Virus record (IMG/VR): IMGVR_UViG_2859799533_000006
DNA: 34,130 bases
Strand: one strand, 5' to 3'
DNA from: a virus
Lineage: Duplodnaviria; Heunggongvirae; Uroviricota; Caudoviricetes
Shown here: positions 10,870 to 29,776 of the stretch, one piece after another
Position numbering within the stretch: the first letter of the stretch is position 1
How the letters are laid out: each line of letters begins with the position of its first letter
Notes under the pieces: model-generated
The model's database searches: none
The model's input: only the letters and a program-made list of their open reading frames with translations
What the model was told of the DNA's origin: nothing
Position numbers and translations under genes: made by a program

Positions 10870-10903
10870 GGAGTTTACTCACATCTGACAAAATCAATAT
10901 AAA

Positions 10904-10925
10904 CAGCCCCTCCGGAGAGGGGCTG
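10904..10925 (-). terminator. rho-independent terminator (minus-strand transcripts)
   Basis: 9-bp GC-rich stem cagcccctc/gaggggctg with loop cgga; on the minus strand it is followed by a U-rich tract. Confidence 0.5.
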
Positions 10926-11158
10926 GAGAGTGGCGCTATGTGCCATTGCATGGTGCCGGGTGCCTCCCGGTGAATTCAGTACCAGCACCTGAATCTGCGA
11001 TTATCCCATATACCTACTCGCTGATTGCCCCTCCGCACAGGGGGATTCACCATGCCAGTTTCTTTTAACAAACTCCCCGCAAACCAGACAACAGTCAACC
11101 GCCTGAATTGTGAGACATTTAAAAAAAAGCCCGCAAAAGCGAGCCAGGGAAAATAAGT

Positions 11159-11235
11159 GTGGCGCGTTCTACTGTATTCGAACCAGTGACCGATTGCTTA
11201 GAAGGCAATTGCTCTGTCCGGCTGAGCTAACAACG
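11159..11235 (-). tRNA. argN: tRNA-Arg (anticodon UCU)
   Basis: Reverse complement gives a cloverleaf with anticodon loop CCTTCTAAG, T-loop TTCGAAT and CCA end; one acceptor-stem and one T-stem mismatch. Confidence 0.6.
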
Positions 11236-11251
11236 CAGGATACAGATAATG

Positions 11252-11326
11252 AACCGCCTTCGGGGACCCGAACTCCGCGCAACCAGCTTCGAAGGCTGGC
11301 GCTCTTTCCTGATGAGCTAATGGCGG
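11252..11326 (-). tRNA. tRNA-Arg-like (anticodon UCG), somewhat degenerate
   Basis: Hand-folded cloverleaf: D-arm gctc/gagc, anticodon stem ccagc/gctgg with loop CTTCGAA, T-loop TTCGGGT; acceptor 6/7 and T-stem 4/5 pairs; A58 replaced by G. Confidence 0.4.
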
Positions 11327-11333
11327 TATGTGA

Positions 11334-11409
11334 TGGTGGCCCTTGCTGGATTTGAACCAGCGACCTGGCGATTATGAGTCGCTCGCTCTCACCACTGAGC
11401 TAAAGGGCC
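11334..11409 (-). tRNA. ileZ: tRNA-Ile2 (anticodon CAU, ileZ-like)
   Basis: Reverse complement GGCCCTTTAGCTCAGTGGTGAGAGCGAGCGACTCATAATCGC...GGTTCAAATCCAGCAAGGGCCACCA closely resembles E. coli tRNA-Ile2; anticodon CAT. Confidence 0.8.
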
Positions 11410-13082: not shown

Positions 13083-13556
13083 CTATCGCGTTACCCTCTT
13101 TAACTGCCGCTCCGCCCATGCCTCTTCAATGTCAAACCGAACCACCAACGTATCGTAAAAGCGTTTCACTGATTTTTTCCACGTATCAAGCGTGATAGCA
13201 CTCGTCACTTTGCATATGGCATTAAATGCCTCCGTTGATGGTAGTCTTTCACAGCCACGACCACCACAACGCTGGCAGTCTCTGATAACAGGCATACCAC
13301 GTTTTACCGACTCTTCACGATGAATGGCGACACCACGCCCACGGCAATCCTTACAGGCGGTGGAAACCTCACCCTTTCCGCCACACTCCGGACAGGCAAC
13401 TTTTACCACCTCCCTGACTTTTTTCCATTCTTCCCAGTAAGACGGATACACGCCTTTTGTGCACTTTGCCCACACTGGTGGCTTACCATCCGGATACTGG
13501 ATCTTGTTTGTAAAAACCTCGCTTTCAATAAATTTTTTCCGTGACAGCAGGGGCAC
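13083..13556 (-). CDS. Q: late-gene antiterminator Q (zinc-finger part); has only a GTG start and is probably the 3' part of a frameshifted longer Q gene
   Basis: CPECGGKG...CKDCRGRG zinc-finger motifs; sits upstream of tR' and the tRNA trio; no ATG start, and overlaps the upstream ORF by 154 nt. Confidence 0.6.
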   Translation of the reverse strand: MPLLSRKKFIESEVFTNKIQYPDGKPPVWAKCTKGVYPSYWEEWKKVREVVKVACPECGGKGEVSTACKDCRGRGVAIHREESVKRGMPVIRDCQRCGGRGCERLPSTEAFNAICKVTSAITLDTWKKSVKRFYDTLVVRFDIEEAWAERQLKRVTR

Positions 13557-17869: not shown

Positions 17870-18860
17870 TCAGAATGTCAATTTGTTACTGGATTTACCG
17901 AATTTGTCAGACATGGCTCCCAGGCCAGCCAGGACATCAACCTGTCGCTGTCGCCCACCTCCGTGAGCGGCTGGCTGTTGCCAGTAATCTTCGAAGTGAC
18001 GATCGGGTCCAAAGAACGTCGCAGCCTGCTTCACGAACTGTGTGCCGGTATTTCCTGTAGCACGTACCCAGGCGGCATACCGCTTCACGCCATCAAGCAT
18101 GGTCTCCGGTTTTATTCCTTCCCTGATACGGGCTTTCCAGGCTTTGAAGGCTGCTGACTTGGAATTGCCACCAGCACGTTTGGGATATTCCTGCCAGGCC
18201 TGTTCAAATTCCGGTGAATATTCCTGTCGGGCAGAACGCGCTGGCGCAGACGCGTCAGCGGATGCATCAATAGTGTTTTTAGTCTCCGTTGTAATCTCTG
18301 TAGTAATCTCTGTATTTGTATCAACATTCGGCGTATCCCTGTTCCGTTATGACGTCGGGGGTGTTCCGTTTTAACGTAATAGCTGTATCGCTGATTGCAT
18401 TATTGCTGTTACTTTCTGGCGAAACAGAAGAAGGTGTGGTGATGGCCGCAATTGCCTGTGGGTTGATCCCGACAAACAAAATATTGCTGCATTTCACCCC
18501 ATCGAGCATTTCCACCGTGCGTAAATCCAGAGTAATAAACCCTGCATCGCGCAGACGCTTCAGCGCATCTGCGGTTTCCCTTTTCCCGAAACCAAACTGC
18601 TCAGCAAACGCCTGGTAGCTTCTTTGCAGTTTGTCGCCCTGAAAACGCTTGCGATATCCCAGCAACGCTCCGGTGTGCTCATCCCTGACCTCTGTCGGGC
18701 GGTACCAGTAAACGATCTCTGAAAGCAGAGCGATAGCCGTCGCATCCGGACGCCCACTGGGTAGTCGAATATATTTCCACCAGTTCGCAGGTGTAACATT
18801 GCCGGAAATATTAATTTGACCAATAGCCATAACTTCCGGTGTGGGGGCGTAACGGCTCAT
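17870..18860 (-). pseudogene. phage replication initiator (O-like), frameshifted near 18337 at a GGG run; contains an in-gene tandem repeat
   Basis: N-terminal ORF 18321..18860 ends ...DVITEQGYAEC-stop; the +1 frame continues DTPNVDTNTEITTEITTE...EYSPEFEQAWQEYPKRAGGNSK...MLDGVKRYAAW... to 17870; 12-bp tandem gtaatctctgta x2 at 18291..18314. Confidence 0.6.
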
Positions 18861-19156
18861 ACAACCTCCTTCCGCGGCATGAGAATTGTGTAGCCACGCG
18901 CAGGTTGTAGTCTGGCTTTTGCATCAATAGTAAGCGTTGCAATTTTTCGGATATGAAGATAACCAGCTCTTTCCAGTGCCAGGGTTTCCCTGAATATCGC
19001 TTGCTTAGAACAACAGCAGAAATCAGCAAGCACCTGATGATCAATAACTCTCTCGCCTTCACCGTCTGAAGAACCCGACATCAAAACACGCAACATAATC
19101 AGGCGCTGAATCGGGTTATCGAAAGCACATCCGCACACAAACTGAAAACAGTTCAC
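18857..19156 (-). CDS. putative HTH regulatory protein, translationally coupled to the initiator gene
   Basis: 99-aa ORF with HTH-like segment SKQAIFRETLALERAGYLHI; stop overlaps the downstream start (ATGA). Confidence 0.45.
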   Translation of the reverse strand: MNCFQFVCGCAFDNPIQRLIMLRVLMSGSSDGEGERVIDHQVLADFCCCSKQAIFRETLALERAGYLHIRKIATLTIDAKARLQPARGYTILMPRKEVV

Positions 19157-19377
19157 GCCACACCTCCCAGACGCTTAAACATTTTTCCAGACAGAAATAC
19201 CGCCAGAGGGTAACTGATGGTGTAGCTACGCCCCTGTAGTTCGCACACGACTTTCTGGCTTTCAGCGTTGACTAGGCAAACCCGCAGAACGTGACCGTTG
19301 CTGGTGGCGAACCACTGCCCCACACGGGGGCAACGGTTGTATCGGTGATACAGGGAATTAACGATGTGGCGGATCAT
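19153..19377 (-). CDS. hypothetical protein (coupled operon member)
   Basis: 74-aa ORF with ATGA overlaps on both sides. Confidence 0.4.
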   Translation of the reverse strand: MIRHIVNSLYHRYNRCPRVGQWFATSNGHVLRVCLVNAESQKVVCELQGRSYTISYPLAVFLSGKMFKRLGGVA

Positions 19378-19568
19378 GGACGCACCTCCACCGTAGTTAC
19401 GTATTTAACCGGGCTACCTTTCATTGAGATGGTTTCACACATCTCTGCCGCTTTCAGTTCCGCTGTTTTTCTGGATTTATAGCGACGGTGCCAGACAGAT
19501 ACATCCGTGCGAACTGATACATCGTTTCTGTATTCCGTAGTGGAGATGATGATTTCGTAACTAATCAT
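19374..19568 (-). CDS. hypothetical protein (coupled operon member)
   Basis: 64-aa ORF overlapping the rha stop and the next start by 4 nt. Confidence 0.4.
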   Translation of the reverse strand: MISYEIIISTTEYRNDVSVRTDVSVWHRRYKSRKTAELKAAEMCETISMKGSPVKYVTTVEVRP

Positions 19569-20116
19569 GGGCGAACCTCCTTGTCAGAACCATTCAGCCT
19601 GGAATCAACAAGTGCAGCGCCAAAAACAGCATCACCAACACGGTCGTACAGTTTGCTAGCCAGCGGAGATTCAACGGCCTTAAGCATTGGATAAAGCTGG
19701 CTTGTCCAGATTTGATGGATTTCACGCAAATGCAGGTATACGCCTCTGGCGTTTCGTGCGACAGCTGACATATCAACCGCGTCAGCACCAGATAAATTCT
19801 TCTCCATCTGGTTAAAGGCGTTGATGTATGCCTCTTTGAACCGGGCTGCACGTTTGCCAGTAAAGCCCATAGCAAGGAACGCGAAGCCATCGCGGGTGAT
19901 TTGATAGCAAGGTAGTTTGCGGCCTGTGCAATCGGTGTAATCACTGGGCTGAAAATTCAGCTCAGTGAATTCAACAGAGCACTCAAGCGTCTGGATTTTT
20001 TGAATAACGTTTTTGTGCTGCTTGCAGAAATATTCGGCAACGGCCAAAGAAGAGGTAACAGCCTTCCCATGGATAACATCAATTTTAGGGTGAGTTTGGG
20101 TAGGGGTGGTTGCCAT
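19565..20116 (-). CDS. rha: phage regulatory protein Rha family
   Basis: MATTPTQTHPKIDVIHGKAVTSSLAVAEYFCKQHKNVIQKIQTL...FTELNF...YQITRDGFAFLAMGFTGKRAARFKEAYINAFNQME matches the Rha N-terminal domain; GAGGA RBS 9 nt upstream of the ATG at 20116. Confidence 0.8.
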   Translation of the reverse strand: MATTPTQTHPKIDVIHGKAVTSSLAVAEYFCKQHKNVIQKIQTLECSVEFTELNFQPSDYTDCTGRKLPCYQITRDGFAFLAMGFTGKRAARFKEAYINAFNQMEKNLSGADAVDMSAVARNARGVYLHLREIHQIWTSQLYPMLKAVESPLASKLYDRVGDAVFGAALVDSRLNGSDKEVRP

Positions 20117-20280
20117 AGTGACATCCTCATGTGCGAATTTTGAAAACTCACCACATGGGACGCCAATCACAGAGGTGGTGAGACGTACAGGGTTGGCGTA
20201 ACCGGTCGCACATGACCCCGGCGCATCTTTCGATGCCCCTGCACGCCCCACCATAATTTGGATGTGAGGAAACGTGCGCA

Positions 20281-20303
20281 AAAAAACCGCTGAAGCGCGG
20301 TTA
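20281..20303 (-). terminator. putative rho-independent terminator upstream of rha (minus strand)
   Basis: Minus-strand hairpin aaccgcg...cgcggtt followed by T7. Confidence 0.45.
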
Positions 20304-20521
20304 TGCGCATGTGCGAATTTCAGGACGCCAATCCCGGCACCCGCTTTATAAGGTGCGGAGACAGTGTAACGTCCCGAAATTGCAGAATCAATATTTGGTC
20401 TTGAAATGATCATATAGCTGCTGATATCTTTAGAACTGTTCTTGGATGTTTCGGAGCCGTTTTATGCGAAACAGCTCCCCGTTATTGATGTTGAGTGAGC
20501 CGGGTTACTCCCGGCTTTTTT

Positions 20522-21229
20522 TCACCGCTGCCAACCAATAACCTGAAATAACCCCATTTTCGGGTGATACCAGCGAGTCCCTCGCGGTTCTGCTTCCTCC
20601 ATAACCCGATAAAAAGCAGCCATAAACGGTTCCACAGCAACAATTGCGCGACGTGACAACAATCTGTCCGGCGTCATGAACTCATGGGTGTCTGTAGGAA
20701 TTTGATAGGCGTTCACCAGATTGCGGCATTTATCATCTGACAAACCGGTTTTTGCTTTCAGTTGGCGATATCCGGCATAGCCCTCACGAATAGTGCCCTT
20801 TTTAATTTGCTCGACTGTTTCAGCAACGTGGCTGACTTTTTCTTCCACCTGAGTGATCCGTTTCTGTTGGCGAACGGCTTCAAGAGCCATCGCGGCAACC
20901 ATTTCGATTTCGCTCATTGGCTTACGGATCTGTTCTTCCAGTTCGCGCCAGCGATCTACCAGGCGAGCTGTGAATTCAGGACAGAGCTGTGCGACGACAA
21001 TGATGCTGTCGCGCTTACCTCGTTCACCTTCGAATACATACGCGCTAGAAAATCGGCGAGGCCCAAGTGATTGTTTATTCTCAATTTCCACAGTCTGTGG
21101 AAATTGGATGATTCCCTTTTTAGCCAGTGTTTCAATAGTTCTCTTAACACTATCTGGTCGGCTTCCCACCAGCTCTGCGATCTCAACGCTGGTCATGGAT
21201 GCTTTGCCGTTAAAAATTGCGGTGTTCAT
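20522..21229 (-). CDS. phage DNA-binding regulatory protein (Rha/ORF6N-like antirepressor type)
   Basis: 235 aa; N-terminal MTSVEIAELVGSRPDSVKRTIETLAKKGII HTH-like region and coiled-coil middle; first large gene of the rightward operon. Confidence 0.55.
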   Translation of the reverse strand: MNTAIFNGKASMTSVEIAELVGSRPDSVKRTIETLAKKGIIQFPQTVEIENKQSLGPRRFSSAYVFEGERGKRDSIIVVAQLCPEFTARLVDRWRELEEQIRKPMSEIEMVAAMALEAVRQQKRITQVEEKVSHVAETVEQIKKGTIREGYAGYRQLKAKTGLSDDKCRNLVNAYQIPTDTHEFMTPDRLLSRRAIVAVEPFMAAFYRVMEEAEPRGTRWYHPKMGLFQVIGWQR

Positions 21230-21453
21230 TGTTGGTCTCCTGTGGGCTTGTCATCTTCTGTATTCGCTAGCCTTGGGTGTGTATATGGAATGCTCGGATC
21301 CAGATGACAAAGAATGGCAACATCCTCCGGAACACCTCGCGTTTTCCACTTTCCAACACCTTGACTGCCACGAGGCCTTCCTTTCTTTGGGAACCTGCGA
21401 CCAATAGCGGCATTGGTTTTAAATTGAATTTTTAATATTTCATAAAGGGTCAT
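21226..21453 (-). CDS. small basic protein at the cro position (possible Cro analogue; not a typical HTH)
   Basis: 75-aa ORF divergent from the repressor gene, coupled by ATGA to the next gene; contains a basic GRPRG (AT-hook-like) segment. Confidence 0.35.
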   Translation of the reverse strand: MTLYEILKIQFKTNAAIGRRFPKKGRPRGSQGVGKWKTRGVPEDVAILCHLDPSIPYTHPRLANTEDDKPTGDQQ

Positions 21454-21564
21454 TCTTTAGTCTCACACCAGATACTTTGTTATTCAACGATGTTAACCGC
21501 GGGATTCCAAAGTATCAAGAAATTCTGTTACTTTCGTATCAACAGCCATGAGAGGAGAAGAAAA
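21454..21564. promoter_or_regulatory. divergent promoter/operator region between the repressor gene and the rightward operon
   Basis: 110-bp intergenic region with the repeated motif CAAAGTATCAA (21507..21517), an inverted partial copy gatactttg (21470..21478) and a related tactttcgtatcaac (21528..21542). Confidence 0.5.
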
Positions 21565-22221
21565 ATGAAGTCTTTAGGTGAACGTCTCATCAACGCACGG
21601 CAAAAAGCTGGGTTAACACAAGATGCGTTGGCTAAAAAAGCTGGGATCACCAGAGTTGCAATCAGTAAAGCCGAGCAAGGCCTTACAAAAAGTTTCAACG
21701 GTGACACCCTTTTTAAAGTTGCAGCTGCACTGCGGTGTTCACCGCAGTGGCTTCAGAACGGAGATGAAAAAGATAAGCATTGGGAAAATAATGTTAAGAG
21801 CTGCCCACAGAGAGACACAGCACACTCTTACCCTGTAATTAACTGGGTTCAGGCAGGATTATTCGCAACTTCTGGTGATGACTACAACATGTATGATCAG
21901 GATAATTGGAGGCATTCTGTAAAATACGCTGGTGAGAGGGGGTTCTGGCTGGAAGTGCACGGAGACTCAATGACTTCGCCCGTAGGAATAACATTTCCTG
22001 AAGGAATGTCGATCCTTGTCAACCCAGATAAAGAAGTTTTTTCAGGGTGTTACGTCATCGCCAGAAAAAAATCCACCAATGAAGCAACATTCAAAAAATA
22101 TATTTCTGACATGGGAAAGGCGTTTCTAAAGCCCCTTAATCCACAATATCCAATCATAGAAATGGACAATGATTGCGAAATAGTAGGTGTTGTGGTTGAT
22201 GCCAGGTGGGATATTTTCTGA
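21565..22221 (+). CDS. cI: CI-like repressor (HTH plus LexA/S24 peptidase domain)
   Basis: MKSLGERLINARQKAGLTQDALAKKAGITRVAISKAEQG (HTH) followed by an S24-like domain with GDSM (Ser) and a conserved Lys; GAGGAGAAG RBS. Confidence 0.85.
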   Translation: MKSLGERLINARQKAGLTQDALAKKAGITRVAISKAEQGLTKSFNGDTLFKVAAALRCSPQWLQNGDEKDKHWENNVKSCPQRDTAHSYPVINWVQAGLFATSGDDYNMYDQDNWRHSVKYAGERGFWLEVHGDSMTSPVGITFPEGMSILVNPDKEVFSGCYVIARKKSTNEATFKKYISDMGKAFLKPLNPQYPIIEMDNDCEIVGVVVDARWDIF

Positions 22222-22246
22222 CCAGACACAAAACACAAAAAGAAAC

Positions 22247-22323
22247 CAAAGTATCAAAATCACTTGCCACACCTTGACACCTTAGTTACCATAAAACAAA
22301 GTTCGTAACTGAGGTATCATCTC
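22247..22323 (+). promoter_or_regulatory. putative operator plus promoter downstream of cI
   Basis: Third copy of CAAAGTATCAA at 22247..22257, then TTGCCA-N17-TACCAT ahead of the 22324 ORF. Confidence 0.35.
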
Positions 22324-22827
22324 ATGATCAATAAAGCTACAACTCTTGACTGTCTCGAAGAACTGAAAAACCTCGGCAGCCTCATTACACTAATAGCAAA
22401 AGCAACACCTGATGCTACACTCTCTAGCGATATAGAGTCATGCGCAGGACTGGCATGGGATATGACAAATAGCATATCCAGAAAGCTATCGTCAGCAATG
22501 CTTTTACAGAACAAAAATTCTGCAATCAACAACCGTCTTCGCACCCAACGCGAAGCCTGCGGCTTAACAACCGCCGAACTCGCCAGGCTGCTCGATCTCG
22601 ATGAAGAAATTATCATCCAGTGGGAGAGCGGAGAGTATGAACCAACTATCAGTATGCTTATCCCACTGGCAAATATTCTTGGCTGCGATCCGATGTGGCT
22701 GTTAACTGGTGAGGTTACTCCTCCGGAGCAACCAAAAAGTGAGGAGCAGCAACACCATGACGCATCTCAACAAGTTTGCCCCTTATCTCGCGAAGCTCTT
22801 CTGCGGAAGAACCAATACCAATGGTGA
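22324..22827 (+). CDS. XRE-family HTH protein at the rex-equivalent position
   Basis: 167 aa; central HTH (LRTQREACGLTTAELARLLDLDEEIIIQWESGEYEPTISMLIPLANILGCDPMWLL). Confidence 0.55.
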   Translation: MINKATTLDCLEELKNLGSLITLIAKATPDATLSSDIESCAGLAWDMTNSISRKLSSAMLLQNKNSAINNRLRTQREACGLTTAELARLLDLDEEIIIQWESGEYEPTISMLIPLANILGCDPMWLLTGEVTPPEQPKSEEQQHHDASQQVCPLSREALLRKNQYQW

Positions 22828-22975
22828 CATAATCGCCGCTTCGCCCTTCAAGGTACATGCGAACATTTTTATCAATCATTGCGGAAACAGTCTCAATATG
22901 AAAACACTTCTGAGACTCGCTATATAGCAGAACATATAAGTCAGCTGAGGAAGCCATGAAAAAGTTCGAAAACAT
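22715..22975 (-). CDS. hypothetical protein (antisense/convergent; uncertain)
   Basis: 86-aa ORF with GGAGAA RBS 6 nt upstream of its ATG; overlaps the 3' end of 22324..22827 and the 5' end of 22956..23321. Confidence 0.35.
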   Translation of the reverse strand: MFSNFFMASSADLYVLLYSESQKCFHIETVSAMIDKNVRMYLEGRSGDYVTIGIGSSAEELREIRGKLVEMRHGVAAPHFLVAPEE

Positions 22976-23321
22976 AACTGTTCTCCATGTTGATGACTTT
23001 GATTATACAAACCCGGAACTTCTCCCGGAGGTTGTAAAGGCAATAGATGTTGCCGATATAGTGATTAGAGAAAAGAGAATTGTCAAAAACAGGCTCGCAT
23101 GCACTTCAGGAGCAATGACAGAAACAACCTCACAGCAAGATAATTACGAAGGCATTTGTCTGGAGCCTGATTCATTTGCGGTAAATGTTTATCATTTATT
23201 GCATGCAACACAGGTATTACATATGTCCAGTAATCACGAAACGAAAACACTCGGCAGCGAAATTCTGAGTTTTGCATGTGAGTATACAAAAGCTGCTGCC
23301 GAAAAAGAATTAGCGCAATAA
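22956..23321 (+). CDS. hypothetical protein
   Basis: 121-aa ORF MKKFENITVLHVDDFDYTNPELLPEV... with GAGGAAG RBS. Confidence 0.45.
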   Translation: MKKFENITVLHVDDFDYTNPELLPEVVKAIDVADIVIREKRIVKNRLACTSGAMTETTSQQDNYEGICLEPDSFAVNVYHLLHATQVLHMSSNHETKTLGSEILSFACEYTKAAAEKELAQ

Positions 23322-23448
23322 CAACAAATATGCCCTGAACGTTTATTGCGGTTTTATCGCCGGGGATTGTTACAACCTTAATCCGCAGGAGGCTTTATTG
23401 TGACTTTTATAAAGAATATGGCATCACACAAGACCGCTGGATTTGCCC

Positions 23449-23756
23449 CTATATTTCCAGACATCTGTTATCACTTAACCCATTACAAGCCCGCTGCCGC
23501 AGATATTCCCGTGGCGAGCGATAACCCAGCGCACTATGCGGATGCCATTCGTTATAATGCTCGAACGCCTCTGCAAGGTTCTTTGCTGCCGTTAACCCGT
23601 CTGGTTTGGGCATGATACTGATGTAGTCACGCTTTATCGTTTTCACGAAGCTCTCTGCTATTCCGTTACTCTCCGGACTCCGCACCGCCGTGTTCTTCGG
23701 TTCAAGTCCCAACATCCGGGCGAACTGGCGTGTTTCATTAGCCCGGTAGCATGAAC
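23449..23756 (-). pseudogene. insD: IS2 transposase InsD, 3' fragment
   Basis: ORF 23449..23715 encodes the InsD C-terminus ([31 protein letters not shown]...); separated from the 5' part by IS629. Confidence 0.85.
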
Positions 23757-23798
23757 TGAACCGCCCCGGGTTTCCTGGAGAGTGTTTTATCTGTGAAC

Positions 23799-24689
23799 TC
23801 AGGCTGCCAGATCATCGTTTCCGATGGAAGCATAATAAGCTTTTTCTGCTTCTGCCGGAGGAGTATGGCCCAGCCTTTCCAGCAATCGTCGATTGTTATA
23901 CCAGTCCACCCACGTGAGTGTGGCCAGTTCCACTTCTGCACGGTTTTTCCAGCTCTTACGGTGTATTACCTCCGCTTTGTAAAGACCATTGATGCTCTCC
24001 GCCATCGCGTTGTCATACGAGTCGCCTGTACTTCCTGTTGATGCCAGTAATCCGGCTTCCTTAAGCCGCTGTGTGTAGGCCAGCGATACATACTGAGAAC
24101 CTTTATCACTGTGATGGACCGTGCCGGACGGTCGACGGGCCCATAACGCCTGCTCCAGAGCATCCAGCACGAATGTCGTTTCCATGGACGATGAGACCCG
24201 CCACCCCACGATGTATCCGGCAAACACATCAATGATGAACGCCACATAGACGAAGCCCTGCCATGTGCTGACGTAAGTAAAATCAGCCACCCACAGCTGG
24301 TCAGGTCGTTCTGCCACGAACTGACGGTTTACGCGGTCGCCTGCGGCAACGGCTTTCCGGCTGATGGTCGTACGGACCTTTTTACCCCGGAGAACACCGG
24401 CAAGTCCCATAACCGCCATGAGACGTGCCACAGTGCATCTGGCCACTCTGATACCTTCCCGTAACAACTGACGCCAGACTTTACGCACACCGTATACCTG
24501 ATGATTCCCATCGTATACGCGCAGTATCTCTTTCTTCAGCCAGTCATCGCGCTGCGCACGGGCACTGCGTTTATCAGGATGATGTCGCTGTTGCTGACAG
24601 TGGTAATACGTTGACGGGGCAATATGCAGTTCACTGCATACCGGTCCGACCCCGTACAGCTTACGCAGCTTATCCAGCAGTGGCATCAC
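23799..24689 (-). CDS. IS629 transposase OrfB (DDE integrase domain)
   Basis: 296-aa ORF with the IS3-family catalytic region; overlaps orfA in the arrangement for a -1 frameshift fusion. Confidence 0.9.
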
Positions 24690-25012
24690 TTTTTCCAGAG
24701 GCGGTCGAACTCCGCCTTCGCAAAATAAGCGGAAGCCTGGCGAAGGATATCGTTACTGCGGCGCAGTTCACGATTTTCACGCTCCAGCTCTTTCAGACGC
24801 TGACGTTCAGCGGTGGTGAGCCCTCCATCACCGCCCCCGGTATCCCGCTCATGCTGGCGAACCCAGACACGCAGAGTCTCCGGCGTACAGCCAATCTTTG
24901 GAGCAATGGAACAAATTGTCGCCCATTGTGAGTCATATTCGCCCTGACTTTCCAGAACCATACGGACTGCCCGTTGACGGACTTCGGGGGAAAAACGAGT
25001 ATTTTTAGTCAT
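24686..25012 (-). CDS. IS629 transposase OrfA
   Basis: 108-aa HTH/leucine-zipper protein [22 protein letters not shown]... Confidence 0.9.
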
Positions 25013-25066
25013 CCTGTTTACCTCTTTCTCAGGAAGTTTAGTCTCCAGGATTCCCGGGGCGGTTCA

Positions 25067-25667
25067 AACCATTATCCGTCAGCCACTCCACTGGAGACGA
25101 CGGAAGATCGTTGCCGAAGCGGCGTTCCACCGCTCCCAGCATGACGTCCTGTACTGTTTCACTGTTGAAGCCGCCGGTAGTCACCGCCCAGTGCAGTGCC
25201 TCACGATCACAGCAGTCCAGCGCGAACGTGACACGCAGTCTCTCTCCGTTATCACAGCAGAACTCGAACCCGTCAGAGCACCATCGCTGATTGCTTTCTT
25301 TCACGGCCACTCTGCCTGTATGTGCCCGTTTCGATGGCGGTACAGCAGGTTTTCGCTCAAGCAACAGCGCATTCTGGCGCATGATCCGGTAAACACGTTT
25401 GGCATTGATCGCAGGCATACCATCAAGTTCTGCCTGTCTGCGAAGCAGCGCCCATACCCGACGATAACCATACGTGGGCAGCTCTCCGATAACATGGTGT
25501 ATACGGAGAAGCACATCCGTATCATCAGTGTGACGACTGCGGCGGCCATCCATCCAGTCATCGGTTCGTCTGAGAATGACGTGCAACTGCGCACGCGACA
25601 CCCGGAGACAACGGCTGACTAAGCTTACTCCCCATCCCCGGGCAATAAGGGCGCGTGCGCTATCCAC
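25067..25667 (-). pseudogene. insD: IS2 transposase InsD, 5' fragment
   Basis: ORF 25038..25667 ([21 protein letters not shown]...) runs into the IS629 end at 25066. Confidence 0.85.
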
Positions 25668-25990
25668 TTTTTTGCCCGTCCATATTCAACGGCTTCTTTG
25701 AGGAGTTCATTTTCCATCGTTTTCTTGCCGAGCAGGCGCTGGAGTTCTTTAATCTGCTTCATAGCGGCAGCAAGTTCAGAGGCAGGAACAACCTGTTCTC
25801 CGGCGGCCACAGCAGTAAGACTTCCTTCCTGGTATTGCTTACGCCAGAGAAATAACTGGCTGGCTGCTACACCATGTTGCCGGGCAACGAGGGAGACCGT
25901 CATCCCCGGTTCAAAGCTCTGCTGAACAATTGCGATCTTTTCCTGTGTGGTACGCCGTCTGCGTTTCTCCGGCCCTAAGACATCAATCAT
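25625..25990 (-). CDS. insC: IS2 transposase InsC (OrfA)
   Basis: [56 protein letters not shown]... (121 aa). Confidence 0.9.
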
Positions 25991-26164
25991 CTGTACTCCA
26001 ATGACTAGTCTAAAAACTAGTATTAAGACTATCACTTATTTAAGTGATACTGGTTGTCTGGAGATTCAGGGGGCCAGTCTAACCGCCTGCCTTATTGCAC
26101 AATACGGTGAAAATTACATGCATATTGCCTGCTTATTTCTGCGTAAAGCATACGGGAGATAATA

Positions 26165-26365
26165 ATGCATCAGAAAACAGCAGAACACGAACAAACCAGA
26201 ATATTGCTGACCATCAAAAACGGGAAAGTAATATTCATTCGCCATGTTCATGACGATGAACTTGTAGGAACTCTTTCAACATTCCTGTTTATTGCAGAAA
26301 AGGCAGGATATGACGTTATTGCACCAGCAGATGAAGATGAAGATGAAGATGAAGATGAGGAATAA
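26165..26365 (+). CDS. small protein with poly-acidic C-terminal tail
   Basis: MHQKTAEHEQTRILLTIKNGKVIFIRHVHDDELVGTLSTFLFIAEKAGYDVIAPADEDEDEDEDEE; the tail is encoded by a (GATGAA)n repeat. Confidence 0.45.
   Translation: MHQKTAEHEQTRILLTIKNGKVIFIRHVHDDELVGTLSTFLFIAEKAGYDVIAPADEDEDEDEDEE
26330..26362 (+). repeat. hexanucleotide tandem repeat (GATGAA)x4 plus GATGAG-GAA
   Basis: Read directly from the sequence at the 3' end of ORF 26165..26365. Confidence 0.9.
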
Positions 26366-27801: not shown

Positions 27802-28242
27802 CTATCAGGCACTGCGCGAGGCGGCGGAACAGGCAACGCAAGATGAATGGGTAGCATATATTTTGCCGGGTCATAACGGCATTTATCCTGCGCGCACGTC
27901 TGAGGGTAGGCATTGCGGATACTTTATTGACTGGCCTGGCGTCTGTCAGGGGCGGGAGAGCATCAGCATCAGAACCTACGCAGTGAATTGCAATGACGCA
28001 TGGCTAAACACCGAAGGTGATGACATCTCCGGCTCATACGTTAAGTACAAAGACCATCAGGAAGTGGTTGCCGCTCTTGAAGCCAAGTGCGCGGCGCTGG
28101 CAGCGGAGAATGCGGGAATAAAGTCTGCAATTCCAGAATCACGGGATATTGAGGATGACAATGACAATATGGATGACGTATCTCTCGCGGAAGACTTCGG
28201 GTTCAATCATGCAATAGAACGGATGAGGAGACAGATTGAACC
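27788..28242 (+). pseudogene. Ead/Ea22-like protein, C-terminus disrupted by IS629 insertion two codons before the native stop
   Basis: MSKIDYQALREAAEQATQDEWVAY... is the Ead/Ea22-like N-terminal signature; reading across the 3-bp target duplication gives ...RMRRQID-T-stop. Confidence 0.65.
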
Positions 28243-28278
28243 GCCCCGGGTTTCCTGGAGAGTGTTTTATCTGTGAAC

Positions 28279-29169
28279 TCAGGCTGCCAGATCATCGTTT
28301 CCGATGGAAGCATAATAAGCTTTTTCTGCTTCTGCCGGAGGAGTATGGCCCAGCCTTTCCAGCAATCGTCGATTGTTATACCAGTCCACCCACGTGAGTG
28401 TGGCCAGTTCCACTTCTGCACAGTTTTTCCAGCTCTTACGGTGTATTACCTCCGCTTTGTAAAGACCATTGATGCTCTCCGCCATCGCGTTGTCATACGA
28501 GTCGCCTGTACTTCCTGTTGATGCCAGTAATCCGGCTTCCTTAAGCCGCTGTGTGTAGGCCAGCGATACATACTGAGAACCTTTATCACTGTGATGGACC
28601 GTGCCGGACGGTCGACGGGCCCATAACGCCTGCTCCAGAGCATCCAGCACGAATGTCGTTTCCATGGACGATGAGACCCGCCACCCCACGATGTATCCGG
28701 CAAACACATCAATGATGAACGCCACATAGACGAAGCCCTGCCATGTGCTGACGTAAGTAAAATCAGCCACCCACAGCTGGTCAGGTCGTTCTGCCACGAA
28801 CTGACGGTTTACGCGGTCGCCTGCGGCAACGGCTTTCCGGCTGATGGTCGTACGGACCTTTTTACCCCGGAGAACACCGGCAAGTCCCATAACCGCCATG
28901 AGACGTGCCACAGTGCATCTGGCCACTCTGATACCTTCCCGTAACAACTGACGCCAGACTTTACGCACACCGTATACCTGATGATTCCCATCGTATACGC
29001 GCAGTATCTCTTTCTTCAGCCAGTCATCGCGCTGCGCACGGGCACTGCGTTTATCAGGATGATGTCGCTGTTGCTGACAGTGGTAATACGTTGACGGGGC
29101 AATATGCAGTTCACTGCATACCGGTCCGACCCCGTACAGCTTACGCAGCTTATCCAGCAGTGGCATCAC
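28279..29169 (-). CDS. IS629 transposase OrfB
   Basis: Identical to the copy 1 OrfB except one residue (Cys for Arg in SWKNCAEVE). Confidence 0.9.
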
Positions 29170-29492
29170 TTTTTCCAGAGGCGGTCGAACTCCGCCTTCG
29201 CAAAATAAGCGGAAGCCTGGCGAAGGATATCGTTACTGCGGCGCAGTTCACGATTTTCACGCTCCAGCTCTTTCAGACGCTGACGTTCAGCGGTGGTGAG
29301 CCCTCCATCACCGCCCCCGGTATCCCGCTCATGCTGGCGAACCCAGACACGCAGAGTCTCCGGCGTACAGCCAATCTTTGGAGCAATGGAACAAATTGTC
29401 GCCCATTGTGAGTCATATTCGCCCTGACTTTCCAGAACCATACGGACTGCCCGTTGACGGACTTCGGGGGAAAAACGAGTATTTTTAGTCAT
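29166..29492 (-). CDS. IS629 transposase OrfA
   Basis: Identical to copy 1 OrfA. Confidence 0.9.
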
Positions 29493-29776
29493 CCTGTTTA
29501 CCTCTTTCTCAGGAAGTTTAGTCTCCAGGATTCCCGGGGCGGTTCAGATACCTGAAACGCCAACCACTGATGCTTTCCTGGCTGAAGTCCGGGCGCAGGG
29601 GTGGATGCTGCTATAGAAGCTGCAAAAAATCTGGTGGCCCAAGAATATGAGTGTAAGGATTTCAAAGCGGCGCAGAGTGATTGCTGTATGCACCCTAGTT
29701 CAGACCTGGTAGGGAAGGTTGAAATGACTGAGTGGTTAGTTGACTTTGCTGCCCAGCTTCGCAAAGGAGGCAATCA

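What the first reader, a model, noticed from the sequence alone, without database searches (positions are those of the whole stretch)
22247..23437. Uncharacterised cargo at the rex-equivalent position downstream of cI
Directly downstream of the repressor, where lambda carries rexAB and other phages carry exclusion or defence genes, are an XRE-type HTH protein with an extra N-terminal domain, a 121-aa protein and an overlapping antisense ORF with a strong RBS. The block is preceded by a repressor-operator-like motif and then cut by IS2.
Basis: partly seen in the sequence, partly recalled or inferred. Interest (0 to 1): 0.55.

Follow-up and report, generated by a model that had tools for sequence, protein, structure and literature searches.

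The report
Early-left regulatory genes of phiP27-like prophage
The stretch after the prophage repressor gene is not a rex-like defence cargo but the operator-controlled start of the phage's leftward early operon, holding a DNA-binding regulator and two small proteins that are conserved but of unknown function.

Summary
The window is a phiP27-like lambdoid prophage, and the three ORFs are phiP27 L10, L09 and L08.

The 102 bp between cI and the HTH gene share the exact 12-mer CCAAAGTATCAA with the cI/cro region and hold a promoter-like site. Heteroimmune relatives show the same pattern with their own motifs. The block therefore lies behind oL/pL, at lambda's N position. The rex slot, between cI and oL, is empty.

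- **L10** is a single-HTH deletion form of a family that usually has a variable N-domain plus two tandem XRE HTHs. The N-domain type follows the cI type; the HTH is shared across immunities.
- **L09**, the antisense ORF, is a real gene under purifying selection. It belongs to a large unnamed family of small proteins.
- **L08** is a real two-domain protein. Its N-domain forms a divergent gene pair with L09-like genes, from Escherichia to a Pirellula genome. Its C-terminal helical hairpin is a paralogue of L10-family N-domains.

There is no defence, N, CII or solved-structure match. IS2 (carrying a nested IS3-family element) lies 116 bp past L08 and cuts only a 37-aa ORF. The most likely role is early regulation; the mechanism is inferred, not shown.

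The parts
22246..22257 (+). Operator-like site CCAAAGTATCAA (putative oL half-site for the adjacent cI)
   Evidence: It is an exact 12-nt copy of 21507-21518 in the cI/cro region, and its 9-nt core occurs as a reverse complement at 21471-21479. The two direct copies are the only exact copies of CAAAGTATCAA in the window. The related motif AGTATCAA is kept at the same place in the 85%-identical Stx1 phage L005.
22264..22292 (+). pL-like sigma-70 promoter candidate, TTGCCA-17 nt-TACCAT. A TTGACACC half-site (22274-22281) lies within it, and a GAGGTATCAT half-site (22311-22320) lies just before the L10 start codon.
   Evidence: The consensus scan scores it 9 of 12. Both hexamers are conserved in L005. 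Heteroimmune relatives carry TTGACA-17/18-TAATAT or TAACAT at the same place. Function is inferred, not shown.
22324..22827 (+). L10 homologue, a 167-aa XRE-family regulator. N-domain aa 1-66 (22324-22521), HTH aa 68-130 (22525-22713), non-conserved tail aa 131-167 (22714-22824).
   Evidence: Pfam HTH_3, and phrog_4739 over the full length. It aligns best to the P22 C2 and 434 repressor DNA-binding domains. The family alignment shows that most members have two HTHs and that this form joins HTH1 to the end of HTH2 at CDPMWLLTG. It is under purifying selection, with differences 24/16/51 by codon position against L005. The tail frame is broken in L008.
22715..22975 (-). L09 homologue, an 86-aa small protein encoded antisense to the operon. 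RBS GGAGAA at 22986-22981 and a TATAAT at 23007-23002.
   Evidence: Codon-position bias 16/12/36 and an intact ORF at 77% aa identity in L008. Homologues occur in Escherichia, Salmonella and Citrobacter. A profile search finds 325 representative clusters. The AlphaFold2 model has a beta-beta-alpha-beta-alpha core with pLDDT about 88. phrog_6104 matches. The TATAAT reads TATAAC in L008, so the promoter is uncertain.
22956..23321 (+). L08 homologue, a 121-aa two-domain protein. N-domain aa 1-47 (22956-23096), disordered linker, C-terminal helical hairpin aa 66-121 (23151-23318).
   Evidence: Full-length homologues at 44-66% identity keep both halves. In L010 and L011 homology starts exactly at its ATG, which overlaps the HTH gene's stop codon. 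AlphaFold2 predicts helices 71-89 and 94-120 with pLDDT 80-92. The C-domain is homologous to L10-family N-domain types B, D and C (hhalign 97%, 96%, 87%). The N-domain has the IVI..G..IVKNRL motif shared with the divergent partners of L09-like genes.
23400..23437 (+). First 12-13 codons of a 37-aa ORF (GTG start, AGGAGG RBS) that IS2 truncates
   Evidence: The intact 37-aa ORF is present in L001, L003, L005 and L108.
23438..26081 (-). IS2 carrying a nested 1310-bp IS3-family element at 23757-25066. Target duplication ACCGC at 23433-23437 and 26082-26086.
   Evidence: Alignment to the uninterrupted prophage L001. A 99.9%-identical second copy of the nested element lies at 28237-29546. Rfam ALIL frameshift pseudoknots lie in both copies. 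InsC/InsD-like and IS3-type ORFs are present. The names IS2 and IS629 come from my own recollection of their terminal repeats and ORF sequences.

Best explanation
This is the immediate-early, repressor-controlled start of the leftward (pL-type) operon of a phiP27-like lambdoid prophage, a group that lacks N, cII and cIII.

Proposed sequence of events:
1. In the lysogen, cI binds operator half-sites at 22246-22320 and shuts a promoter at about 22264-22292.
2. When repression is lifted, the first product is L10, an XRE-family DNA-binding protein.
3. The L10 HTH is nearly identical in heteroimmune phages, so it should recognise a site these phages share.
4. The L10 N-terminal domain belongs to the immunity module.
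5. I infer that L10 is the early transcription regulator that takes over part of the decision-making role N/cII/cIII have in lambda.
6. L08 follows in the same operon. Its C-terminal two-helix hairpin is a paralogue of the N-domains of many L10-family regulators. It most plausibly associates with such domains and modulates them, as SinI does with SinR.
7. The L08 N-domain is the conserved partner of L09.
8. L09 is read from the opposite strand and head-on against pL, so its expression should be inversely coupled to pL activity.

Shown here: the gene reality, domain architecture, homologies, operator sharing and synteny.
Inferred: DNA binding by L10, any protein-protein contacts, and the timing of L09 expression.
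For: - Operator and promoter: three immunity groups each share 8-13-nt motifs between their own cI/cro region and the region between cI and the HTH gene. Several also have consensus promoters there, and one has a terminator after cI.
- Synteny: the order cI, HTH gene, small genes, ea22, xis, int holds in E. coli prophages, phiP27, PhiR49_2, ASU11, Stx1/Stx2 phages and a Pantoea prophage.
- No N, CII or CIII was found by phmmer in about 90 loci that carry L10. A lambdoid with both N and CII (L094) lacks L10.
- L10 is under purifying selection. The family architecture is N-domain plus one or two HTHs.
- Each cI cluster goes with one N-domain cluster, apart from one cI2 locus with the related type N6 and the related cluster cI5, which shares type N2 with cI2. 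The HTH1-coding DNA stays 92-94% identical across immunity types.
- The L08 C-domain is homologous to L10 N-domain types B, D and C. It is a confident helical hairpin. It also occurs as a stand-alone 66-aa gene directly after the two-HTH regulators of Stx phages.
- The L09/L08N pair is conserved, with overlapping or abutting divergent start codons, in Escherichia, Pantoea, a Pirellula genome and metagenomic contigs.
- One protein fuses an L09-like domain to an XRE HTH.
Against: - No DNA target for L10 was identified.
- The window's own type-A N-domain shows no detectable sequence homology to the L08 hairpin.
- The L08 hairpin type does not co-vary with the neighbouring L10 N-domain type. L107 combines a type-A L10 with a type-D-like L08 hairpin. 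This weakens a cognate SinI/SinR-type pairing.
- The link between N-domain type and cI type can be explained by physical linkage alone.
- L10 length varies from 120 to 242 aa within one immunity type, and the second HTH is usually lost. The protein may therefore tolerate much damage.
- No terminator separates cI from L10 in this window, so read-through from pRM in the lysogen is not excluded.
- The TATAAT upstream of L09 is not conserved in L008.
- No experimental literature on these genes was found.
Confidence: 0.5

Rival explanations
1. A lysogen-expressed exclusion or defence moron. L09, with or without L08 and L10, would be expressed from the prophage and abort or exclude superinfecting phages. 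The early-expressed L08 N-domain would act as the phage's own antidote, as Esc does for SieB in P22.
For: - L09 is oriented against pL, has its own strong RBS and a TATAAT upstream, and is present in some related prophages and absent from others.
- It forms a conserved two-gene pair with the L08 N-domain.
- No terminator separates cI from the block in this window.
Against: - PADLOC gives only generic HTH hits for L10, one weak chance-level hit (Cas11a, E=0.03) for L09 and nothing for L08.
- L09 is a soluble 86-aa protein with no enzymatic or membrane signature.
- L09-like genes also sit co-directionally behind replication helicase genes, which is not moron-like.
- L10 and L08 lie behind an operator and promoter and belong to the backbone.
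Confidence: 0.2
2. An SOS-independent induction module of the TF-smORF type (Silpe et al. 2023, PMC10432266). The XRE factor L10 would activate the counter-oriented small gene L09, whose product would inactivate cI.
For: - An XRE transcription factor lies next to a counter-oriented small ORF, close to cI.
- The published logic is a TF that activates a small protein which inactivates cI.
- One protein fuses an L09-like domain to an XRE HTH.
Against: - L10 and L09 are convergent, with overlapping 3' ends. The published modules are divergent.
- Full-length L09 (tblastn aa 1-86; 100% identical in PhiR49_2) occurs with at least four different cI types, and a 77%-identical form with a fifth. A cognate antirepressor would be expected to vary with cI.
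- L10 itself sits behind cI-type operators.
- L09-like genes also occur directly after N in a phage with no L10.
Confidence: 0.1
3. L09 and the L08 N-domain form a toxin-antitoxin-like or addiction pair unrelated to phage regulation. On this view L10 is an ordinary autoregulator.
For: - It is a conserved pair of two small proteins found across distant phyla on mobile elements.
- The L08 N-domain is predicted with low confidence on its own, as expected for a partner-dependent fold.
Against: - The genes are divergent rather than in one operon.
- There is no similarity to any TA family in Pfam or NCBIfam.
- About half of the remote L09-like genes examined have no such partner.
Confidence: 0.1
4. 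Decaying remnants in a defective prophage, in which the ORFs no longer function.
For: - The prophage carries IS2, a nested IS3-family element and a second copy of that element.
- L10 lacks the second HTH and reads through into antisense L09 sequence.
Against: - L10 and L09 show purifying selection.
- The same 167-aa L10 form is the commonest in its immunity group, 31 of 64 loci, and also occurs in uninterrupted prophages.
- All three ORFs are intact.
Confidence: 0.05

Closest known systems
phiP27 ORFs L10, L09, L08 (NC_003356; PHROGs 4739, 6104, 5451)
   Same: Direct homologues in the same order and orientation downstream of the same cI type. Nucleotide identity is 96% over the aligned 91% of the 21454-23437 query.
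   Different: In phiP27, L10 is the 138-aa form. L09 is disrupted after about 36 aa by an insertion or replacement of about 360 bp. All three are annotated 'unknown' there.
Lambda N / pL immediate-early position
   Same: L10 is the first gene after an operator-controlled leftward promoter that reads towards xis and int.
   Different: L10 is an XRE HTH DNA-binding protein with no arginine-rich motif and no N_peptide match. An antitermination function is not implied.
Lambda rexAB / HK022 nun type lysogen-expressed exclusion genes next to cI
   Same: The genes are adjacent to cI on the same strand.
   Different: The rex genes lie between cI and oL and are co-transcribed with cI. Here nothing lies between cI and the operator motif. 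There is also no sequence similarity.
SinR/SinI (Bacillus): an XRE regulator and a small antagonist homologous to its oligomerisation domain
   Same: The family combines an XRE HTH with a helical oligomerisation-type domain. The adjacent small gene's hairpin is a paralogue of that domain in L10-family types B, C and D.
   Different: The helical domain is N-terminal rather than C-terminal. There is no sequence relation to SinI or SinR. The window's own type-A N-domain is not detectably related to L08. Hairpin type does not co-vary with the neighbouring regulator. No interaction has been tested.
TF-smORF prophage induction modules (Silpe et al., Nature 2023, PMC10432266)
   Same: An XRE-type TF and a counter-oriented small protein gene lie close to cI.
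   Different: The arrangement is convergent rather than divergent. L09 is not cI-type specific. The TF sits behind cI-type operators.

Membership tests
XRE / Cro-C1 HTH family (Pfam PF01381) | Five-helix HTH_3 domain scoring above the gathering threshold | tested here: met
   HTH_3 scores 43.3 bits against a cut-off of 23, at aa 72-126. It aligns to the P22 C2 and 434 repressor DNA-binding domains.
L10 tandem-HTH family (phrog_4739 / phrog_4836) | Variable N-domain followed by two XRE HTH domains, encoded directly downstream of cI | tested here: inconclusive
   Position and HTH1 are met. phrog_4739 matches over the full length at E=3.6e-99. Only one hybrid HTH is present, because HTH2 is deleted.
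Lambda Rex (RexA/RexB) slot | Genes located between cI and oL/pL and co-transcribed with cI | tested here: not met
   The operator motif starts 24 bp after the cI stop codon, and the genes lie beyond it. Transcription itself was not tested.
Lambda Rex (RexA/RexB) slot | Sequence similarity to RexA/RexB or any catalogued defence protein | tested here: not met
   PADLOC gives only generic HTH hits for L10, one weak chance-level hit (Cas11a, E=0.03) for L09 and none for L08.
Lambda N antiterminator | N_peptide / arginine-rich motif | tested here: not met
   There is no Pfam N_peptide or N36 hit. phmmer with lambda N and the L094 N finds nothing in loci that carry L10.
Lambda CII (Pfam PF05269) | Phage_CII domain | tested here: not met
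   Pfam does not report PF05269 and phmmer is negative. Only the PHROG label 'CII-like regulator' applies to the HTH part.
SinR/SinI-type regulator-antagonist pair | Antagonist homologous to the regulator's oligomerisation domain | tested here: inconclusive
   Met for L10-family types B, D and C (hhalign 97%, 96%, 87%). Not met for the window's own type A, with probability below 1%.
SinR/SinI-type regulator-antagonist pair | Direct heteromer that blocks DNA binding | not testable with these tools
   No multimer prediction or experiment was available.
TF-smORF induction module | TF and small ORF divergently transcribed, with the small protein inactivating the cognate cI | tested here: not met
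   The orientation is convergent. L09 is shared by several different cI types. Inactivation of cI is not testable here.
GIY-YIG nuclease fold (considered for L09) | GIY and YIG motifs with catalytic Arg, Glu and Asn, and a significant fold match | tested here: not met
IS2 | Terminal inverted repeat, InsC/InsD ORFs and a 5-bp target duplication | tested here: met
   The ACCGC duplication and precise junctions are seen against L001. The ORFs are present. The identity of the repeat rests on my own recollection.

The most novel reading that the evidence does not exclude
The early-left region encodes a combinatorial interaction network that has not been described before. The helical-hairpin domain occurs both fused to the HTH regulator and as free copies: the L08 C-domain, the 66-aa genes of Stx phages, and further paralogues downstream in relatives. 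The free copy carried here resembles the N-domain of heteroimmune phages (type B) rather than the resident type A. It could therefore act as a decoy that poisons the early regulator of competing phages, which would be a new kind of inter-phage interference. In parallel, L09 and the L08 N-domain would be a new two-protein effector and antidote pair, conserved from enterobacteria to planctomycetes.
Probability: 0.15. Interest if true: 0.7.

Novelty: new variant of a known kind. Interest (0 to 1): 0.42.

Why it matters
A large group of E. coli, Shigella and Stx-converting prophages lacks N, cII and cIII. How they take the lysis-lysogeny decision is not known. This block holds the first genes expressed leftward after derepression in that group, so it is the obvious place to look for the missing regulators.

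The analysis turns three 'hypothetical proteins' into testable objects:
- an immunity-linked N-domain fused to a cross-immunity HTH;
- free paralogues of that N-domain;
- a widespread, unnamed small-protein family (L09-like, 325 representative clusters) with a conserved divergent partner.

If the hairpin copies or the L09/L08N pair mediate interference between co-resident prophages, that would bear on Stx-phage induction in polylysogens.

Tried and rejected
- Profile-profile comparison of the whole L08 and L10 alignments gave nothing, because the L10 alignment mixes N-domain types. Splitting by type gave the significant matches.
- Cognate-pair test: I asked whether the L08 hairpin type follows the neighbouring L10 N-domain type. 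It does not, so the strict SinI/SinR reading was down-weighted.
- L08 fold search returned only generic helical hairpins.
- The afdb50 library was not available.
A narrower alignment gave only two loci, both informative.
- Pfam, NCBIfam and PHROGs on L09-like and L08N-like relatives and on their neighbours found no named family.
- Cluster names are only 'helix-turn-helix domain-containing' or 'hypothetical'.
- Literature searches on phiP27 L10, genes downstream of cI, and tandem HTH proteins in prophages found no study of these genes.
- No conserved L09 promoter emerged from comparing upstream regions of distant homologues.
- With up to 2 mismatches allowed, the operator 11-mer is not enriched across the window (12 matches against 9.9 expected). 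Only the exact copies are informative.

Full report
**Context.** The window is a lambdoid prophage of the phiP27 type.
- The interval 18001-23437 aligns to an uninterrupted E. coli prophage (strain SF-088, locus L001) at 95.8% identity. The block itself (22222-23437) is 99.6% identical.
- It aligns to phage phiP27 at 96%.
- In these relatives the window's + strand reads cI, an HTH gene, small genes, ea22-like genes, xis and int, next to yecE. The window's + strand therefore corresponds to lambda's leftward direction.
- The three ORFs of the finding are phiP27 L10 (HTH), L09 (antisense) and L08. They match PHROGs 4739, 6104 and 5451, all of unknown function.

**Observation.** Everything described is present.
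- L10 is at 22324-22827, with a Pfam HTH_3 domain at aa 72-126 and about 66 unassigned N-terminal residues.
- L08 is at 22956-23321.
- L09 is at 22715-22975 on the minus strand, with GGAGAA five nt before its ATG.
- The operator-like motif CCAAAGTATCAA at 22246-22257 is an exact copy of 21507-21518 between cI and the cro-position gene. Its 9-nt core occurs as a reverse complement at 21471-21479.
- The two direct copies are the only exact copies of the 11-mer in the 34 kb window.
- IS2 begins at 23438 with a 5-bp duplication (ACCGC). It carries a nested 1310-bp IS3-family element at 23757-25066.
- IS2 lies 116 bp beyond the L08 stop codon. It cuts a 37-aa ORF, not the three genes.

**Position: behind oL/pL, not the rex slot.**
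- I compared six loci falling into three groups of related operator motifs.
- In each, the region between cI and the HTH gene shares 8-13-nt motifs with that phage's own cI/cro intergenic region:
  - AAAGTATCAA-type in the window and in Stx1 phage L005;
  - AAATCAAGT-type in PhiR49_2, phi467 and Stx2 phage L007;
  - another set in ASU11.
- The second group has TTGACA-17/18-TAATAT or TAACAT promoters there. PhiR49_2 also has an intrinsic terminator right after cI.
- In the window, a TTGCCA-17-TACCAT promoter candidate (22264-22292) is conserved in L005.
- Only 24 bp separate the cI stop codon from the first operator copy. Nothing occupies the lambda rex position, and L10 is at the N position.
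- No terminator follows cI in this window, so read-through from pRM cannot be excluded.

**L10.**
- A database search found 164 relatives, nearly all from E. coli prophages.
- Most are 216-247 aa and have a variable N-domain plus two tandem XRE HTH domains.
- The 167-aa form joins HTH1 to the end of HTH2 at the shared CDPMWLLTG motif, then runs into a tail that is the antisense of L09.
- That tail is not conserved, and its frame is broken in L008.
- The N-domain plus HTH1 is under purifying selection: differences fall 24/16/51 by codon position against L005.
- Across 89 loci, each cI cluster goes with one N-domain cluster. The exceptions are one cI2 locus with the related type N6, and the related cluster cI5, which shares type N2 with cI2.
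- L10 length varies from 120 to 242 aa.
- HTH1 stays 85-95% identical in protein, and 92-94% identical in DNA, across immunity types. Similarity to heteroimmune phages begins at the first HTH codon.
- The N-domain is therefore part of the immunity module, and the HTH is a shared module. Physical linkage alone could explain this.
- None of about 90 loci that carry L10 encodes a lambda-type N, CII or CIII detectable by phmmer. A lambdoid contig with both N and CII (L094) has no L10.

**L09.**
- Against an 88%-identical relative (L008), 64 differences fall 16/12/36 on L09 codon positions. The ORF stays intact at 77% aa identity.
- Homologues of 58-97% identity occur in Escherichia, Salmonella and Citrobacter.
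- A profile search of 1.8 billion representative proteins found 325 clusters with E<=1e-3.
- Those inspected are small proteins sharing V..(Y/W)S.SQ.CFHIET...N...DY, and none of nine small members scanned has a Pfam family.
- AlphaFold2 gives a beta-beta-alpha-beta-alpha core with pLDDT about 88.
- One family member fuses the L09-like domain to an XRE HTH.
- L09 is present in some related prophages and absent from others. Some relatives join L10 directly to L08 with overlapping stop and start codons. Stx phages lack L09, and phiP27 has it disrupted.

**L08.**
- Full-length homologues down to 44% identity conserve both halves. PGAP's 68-aa call is therefore too short.
- The C-terminal half is a confident two-helix hairpin, and the N-domain is modelled weakly.
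- The hairpin is homologous to the N-domains of L10-family types B, D and C (hhalign 97%, 96% and 87%; blastp 42-57% identity). It is not detectably homologous to the window's own type A.
- The hairpin also exists as a separate 66-aa gene after the two-HTH regulators of Stx phages. It is a separate gene in Pantoea too.
- Further free paralogues lie downstream in some relatives.
- Hairpin type does not track the neighbouring L10 N-domain type.
- The L08 N-domain (motif IVI..G..IVKNRL) is the divergent neighbour of L09-like genes, with overlapping or abutting start codons. This pairing is seen in Escherichia, Pantoea, a Citrobacter/Salmonella-like contig, an N-bearing lambdoid, two metagenomic contigs and a Pirellula genome.
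- Other L09-like genes lack this partner and follow helicase genes instead.
- L08 in the window is therefore a fusion of the L09-partner domain and an L10-N-domain paralogue.

**Interpretation.**
- The best-supported reading is an operator-controlled early regulatory module in a phage group that lacks N, cII and cIII. L10 would be the early DNA-binding regulator, and L08 and L09 would be modulators (confidence about 0.5).
- Protein contacts, the L10 target site and the timing of L09 expression are all inferred.
- Four rivals are less supported but not excluded:
  - a lysogen-expressed exclusion system centred on L09;
  - a TF-smORF induction module;
  - a toxin-antitoxin-like pair;
  - decay in a defective prophage.
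- No defence homology was found, and no literature on these genes was found.

**Verdict.** The 'rex-equivalent cargo' reading is only partly supported. The genes were already catalogued as hypothetical ORFs of phiP27. What is new here is the domain relationships and the conserved L09/L08N pair. Interest is moderate.

Noticed in passing
window 20171-20258 (-) and 20280-20356 (-): There are Rfam hits to the C4 antisense RNA (75 bits) and to isrK (62 bits). Both lie inside the 5' part of the 282-aa Ash/Rha-type ORF at 19565-20413. This suggests a P1/P7-style c4-controlled antirepressor unit in the rightward operon, and that the ORF's real start may lie further downstream.
   Followed up: no
window 23438-26081 and 28237-29546: IS2 carries a nested 1310-bp IS3-family element at 23757-25066; I recall it as IS629. 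A 99.9%-identical second copy interrupts the early-left operon further down. Together they separate pL from xis and int, so the prophage is probably unable to excise normally.
   Followed up: partly
window 23400-23437 (continues in L001 at 13180-13293): A 37-aa ORF with a GTG start and an AGGAGG RBS is conserved in relatives (MTFIKNMASHKTACLIAQYGENYMHIACLFLRKAYGR). This is the gene IS2 actually cuts.
   Followed up: partly
window 22537-22700, compared with L003-L011: The HTH1-coding DNA of L10 is 92-94% identical between otherwise heteroimmune phages. It marks the left boundary of the immunity module, so it looks like a recurrent recombination junction.
   Followed up: partly
L097 2771-3268 (protein P0192): A 165-aa protein fuses an L09-like domain to an XRE HTH. 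It lies next to an integrase and IS91-type transposase genes on a metagenomic contig.
   Followed up: no
L094 1047-1836: In a classical lambdoid that has N, Cro, CII and O, the L09-like/L08N-like divergent pair sits directly after N. Only 11 bp separate the two start codons.
   Followed up: partly
L107 2265-2651; L092 1385-1781 and 2195-2581: Further free-standing proteins resembling L10-family N-domains (helical hairpins) lie downstream of L08 in relatives. The hairpin domain may therefore be multi-copy in the early-left operon.
   Followed up: no
window 21226-21453 (-): The cro-position gene (75 aa, phrog_4749) has no Pfam HTH hit. Its counterparts in other immunity types are annotated as YdaS/Cro-like. 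The nature of Cro in this immunity type is open.
   Followed up: no
window 10895-11409 (-): An STnc100 sRNA (127 bits) and three tRNA genes lie near the late-region antiterminator, as in the SF-088 prophage.
   Followed up: no
window 26165-26365 (+): The first gene after IS2 encodes a 66-aa protein with an acidic DEDEDEDEDEE tail. It matches phrog_340 and weakly matches the C-terminal parts of PHROG 'anti-repressor' families.
   Followed up: no
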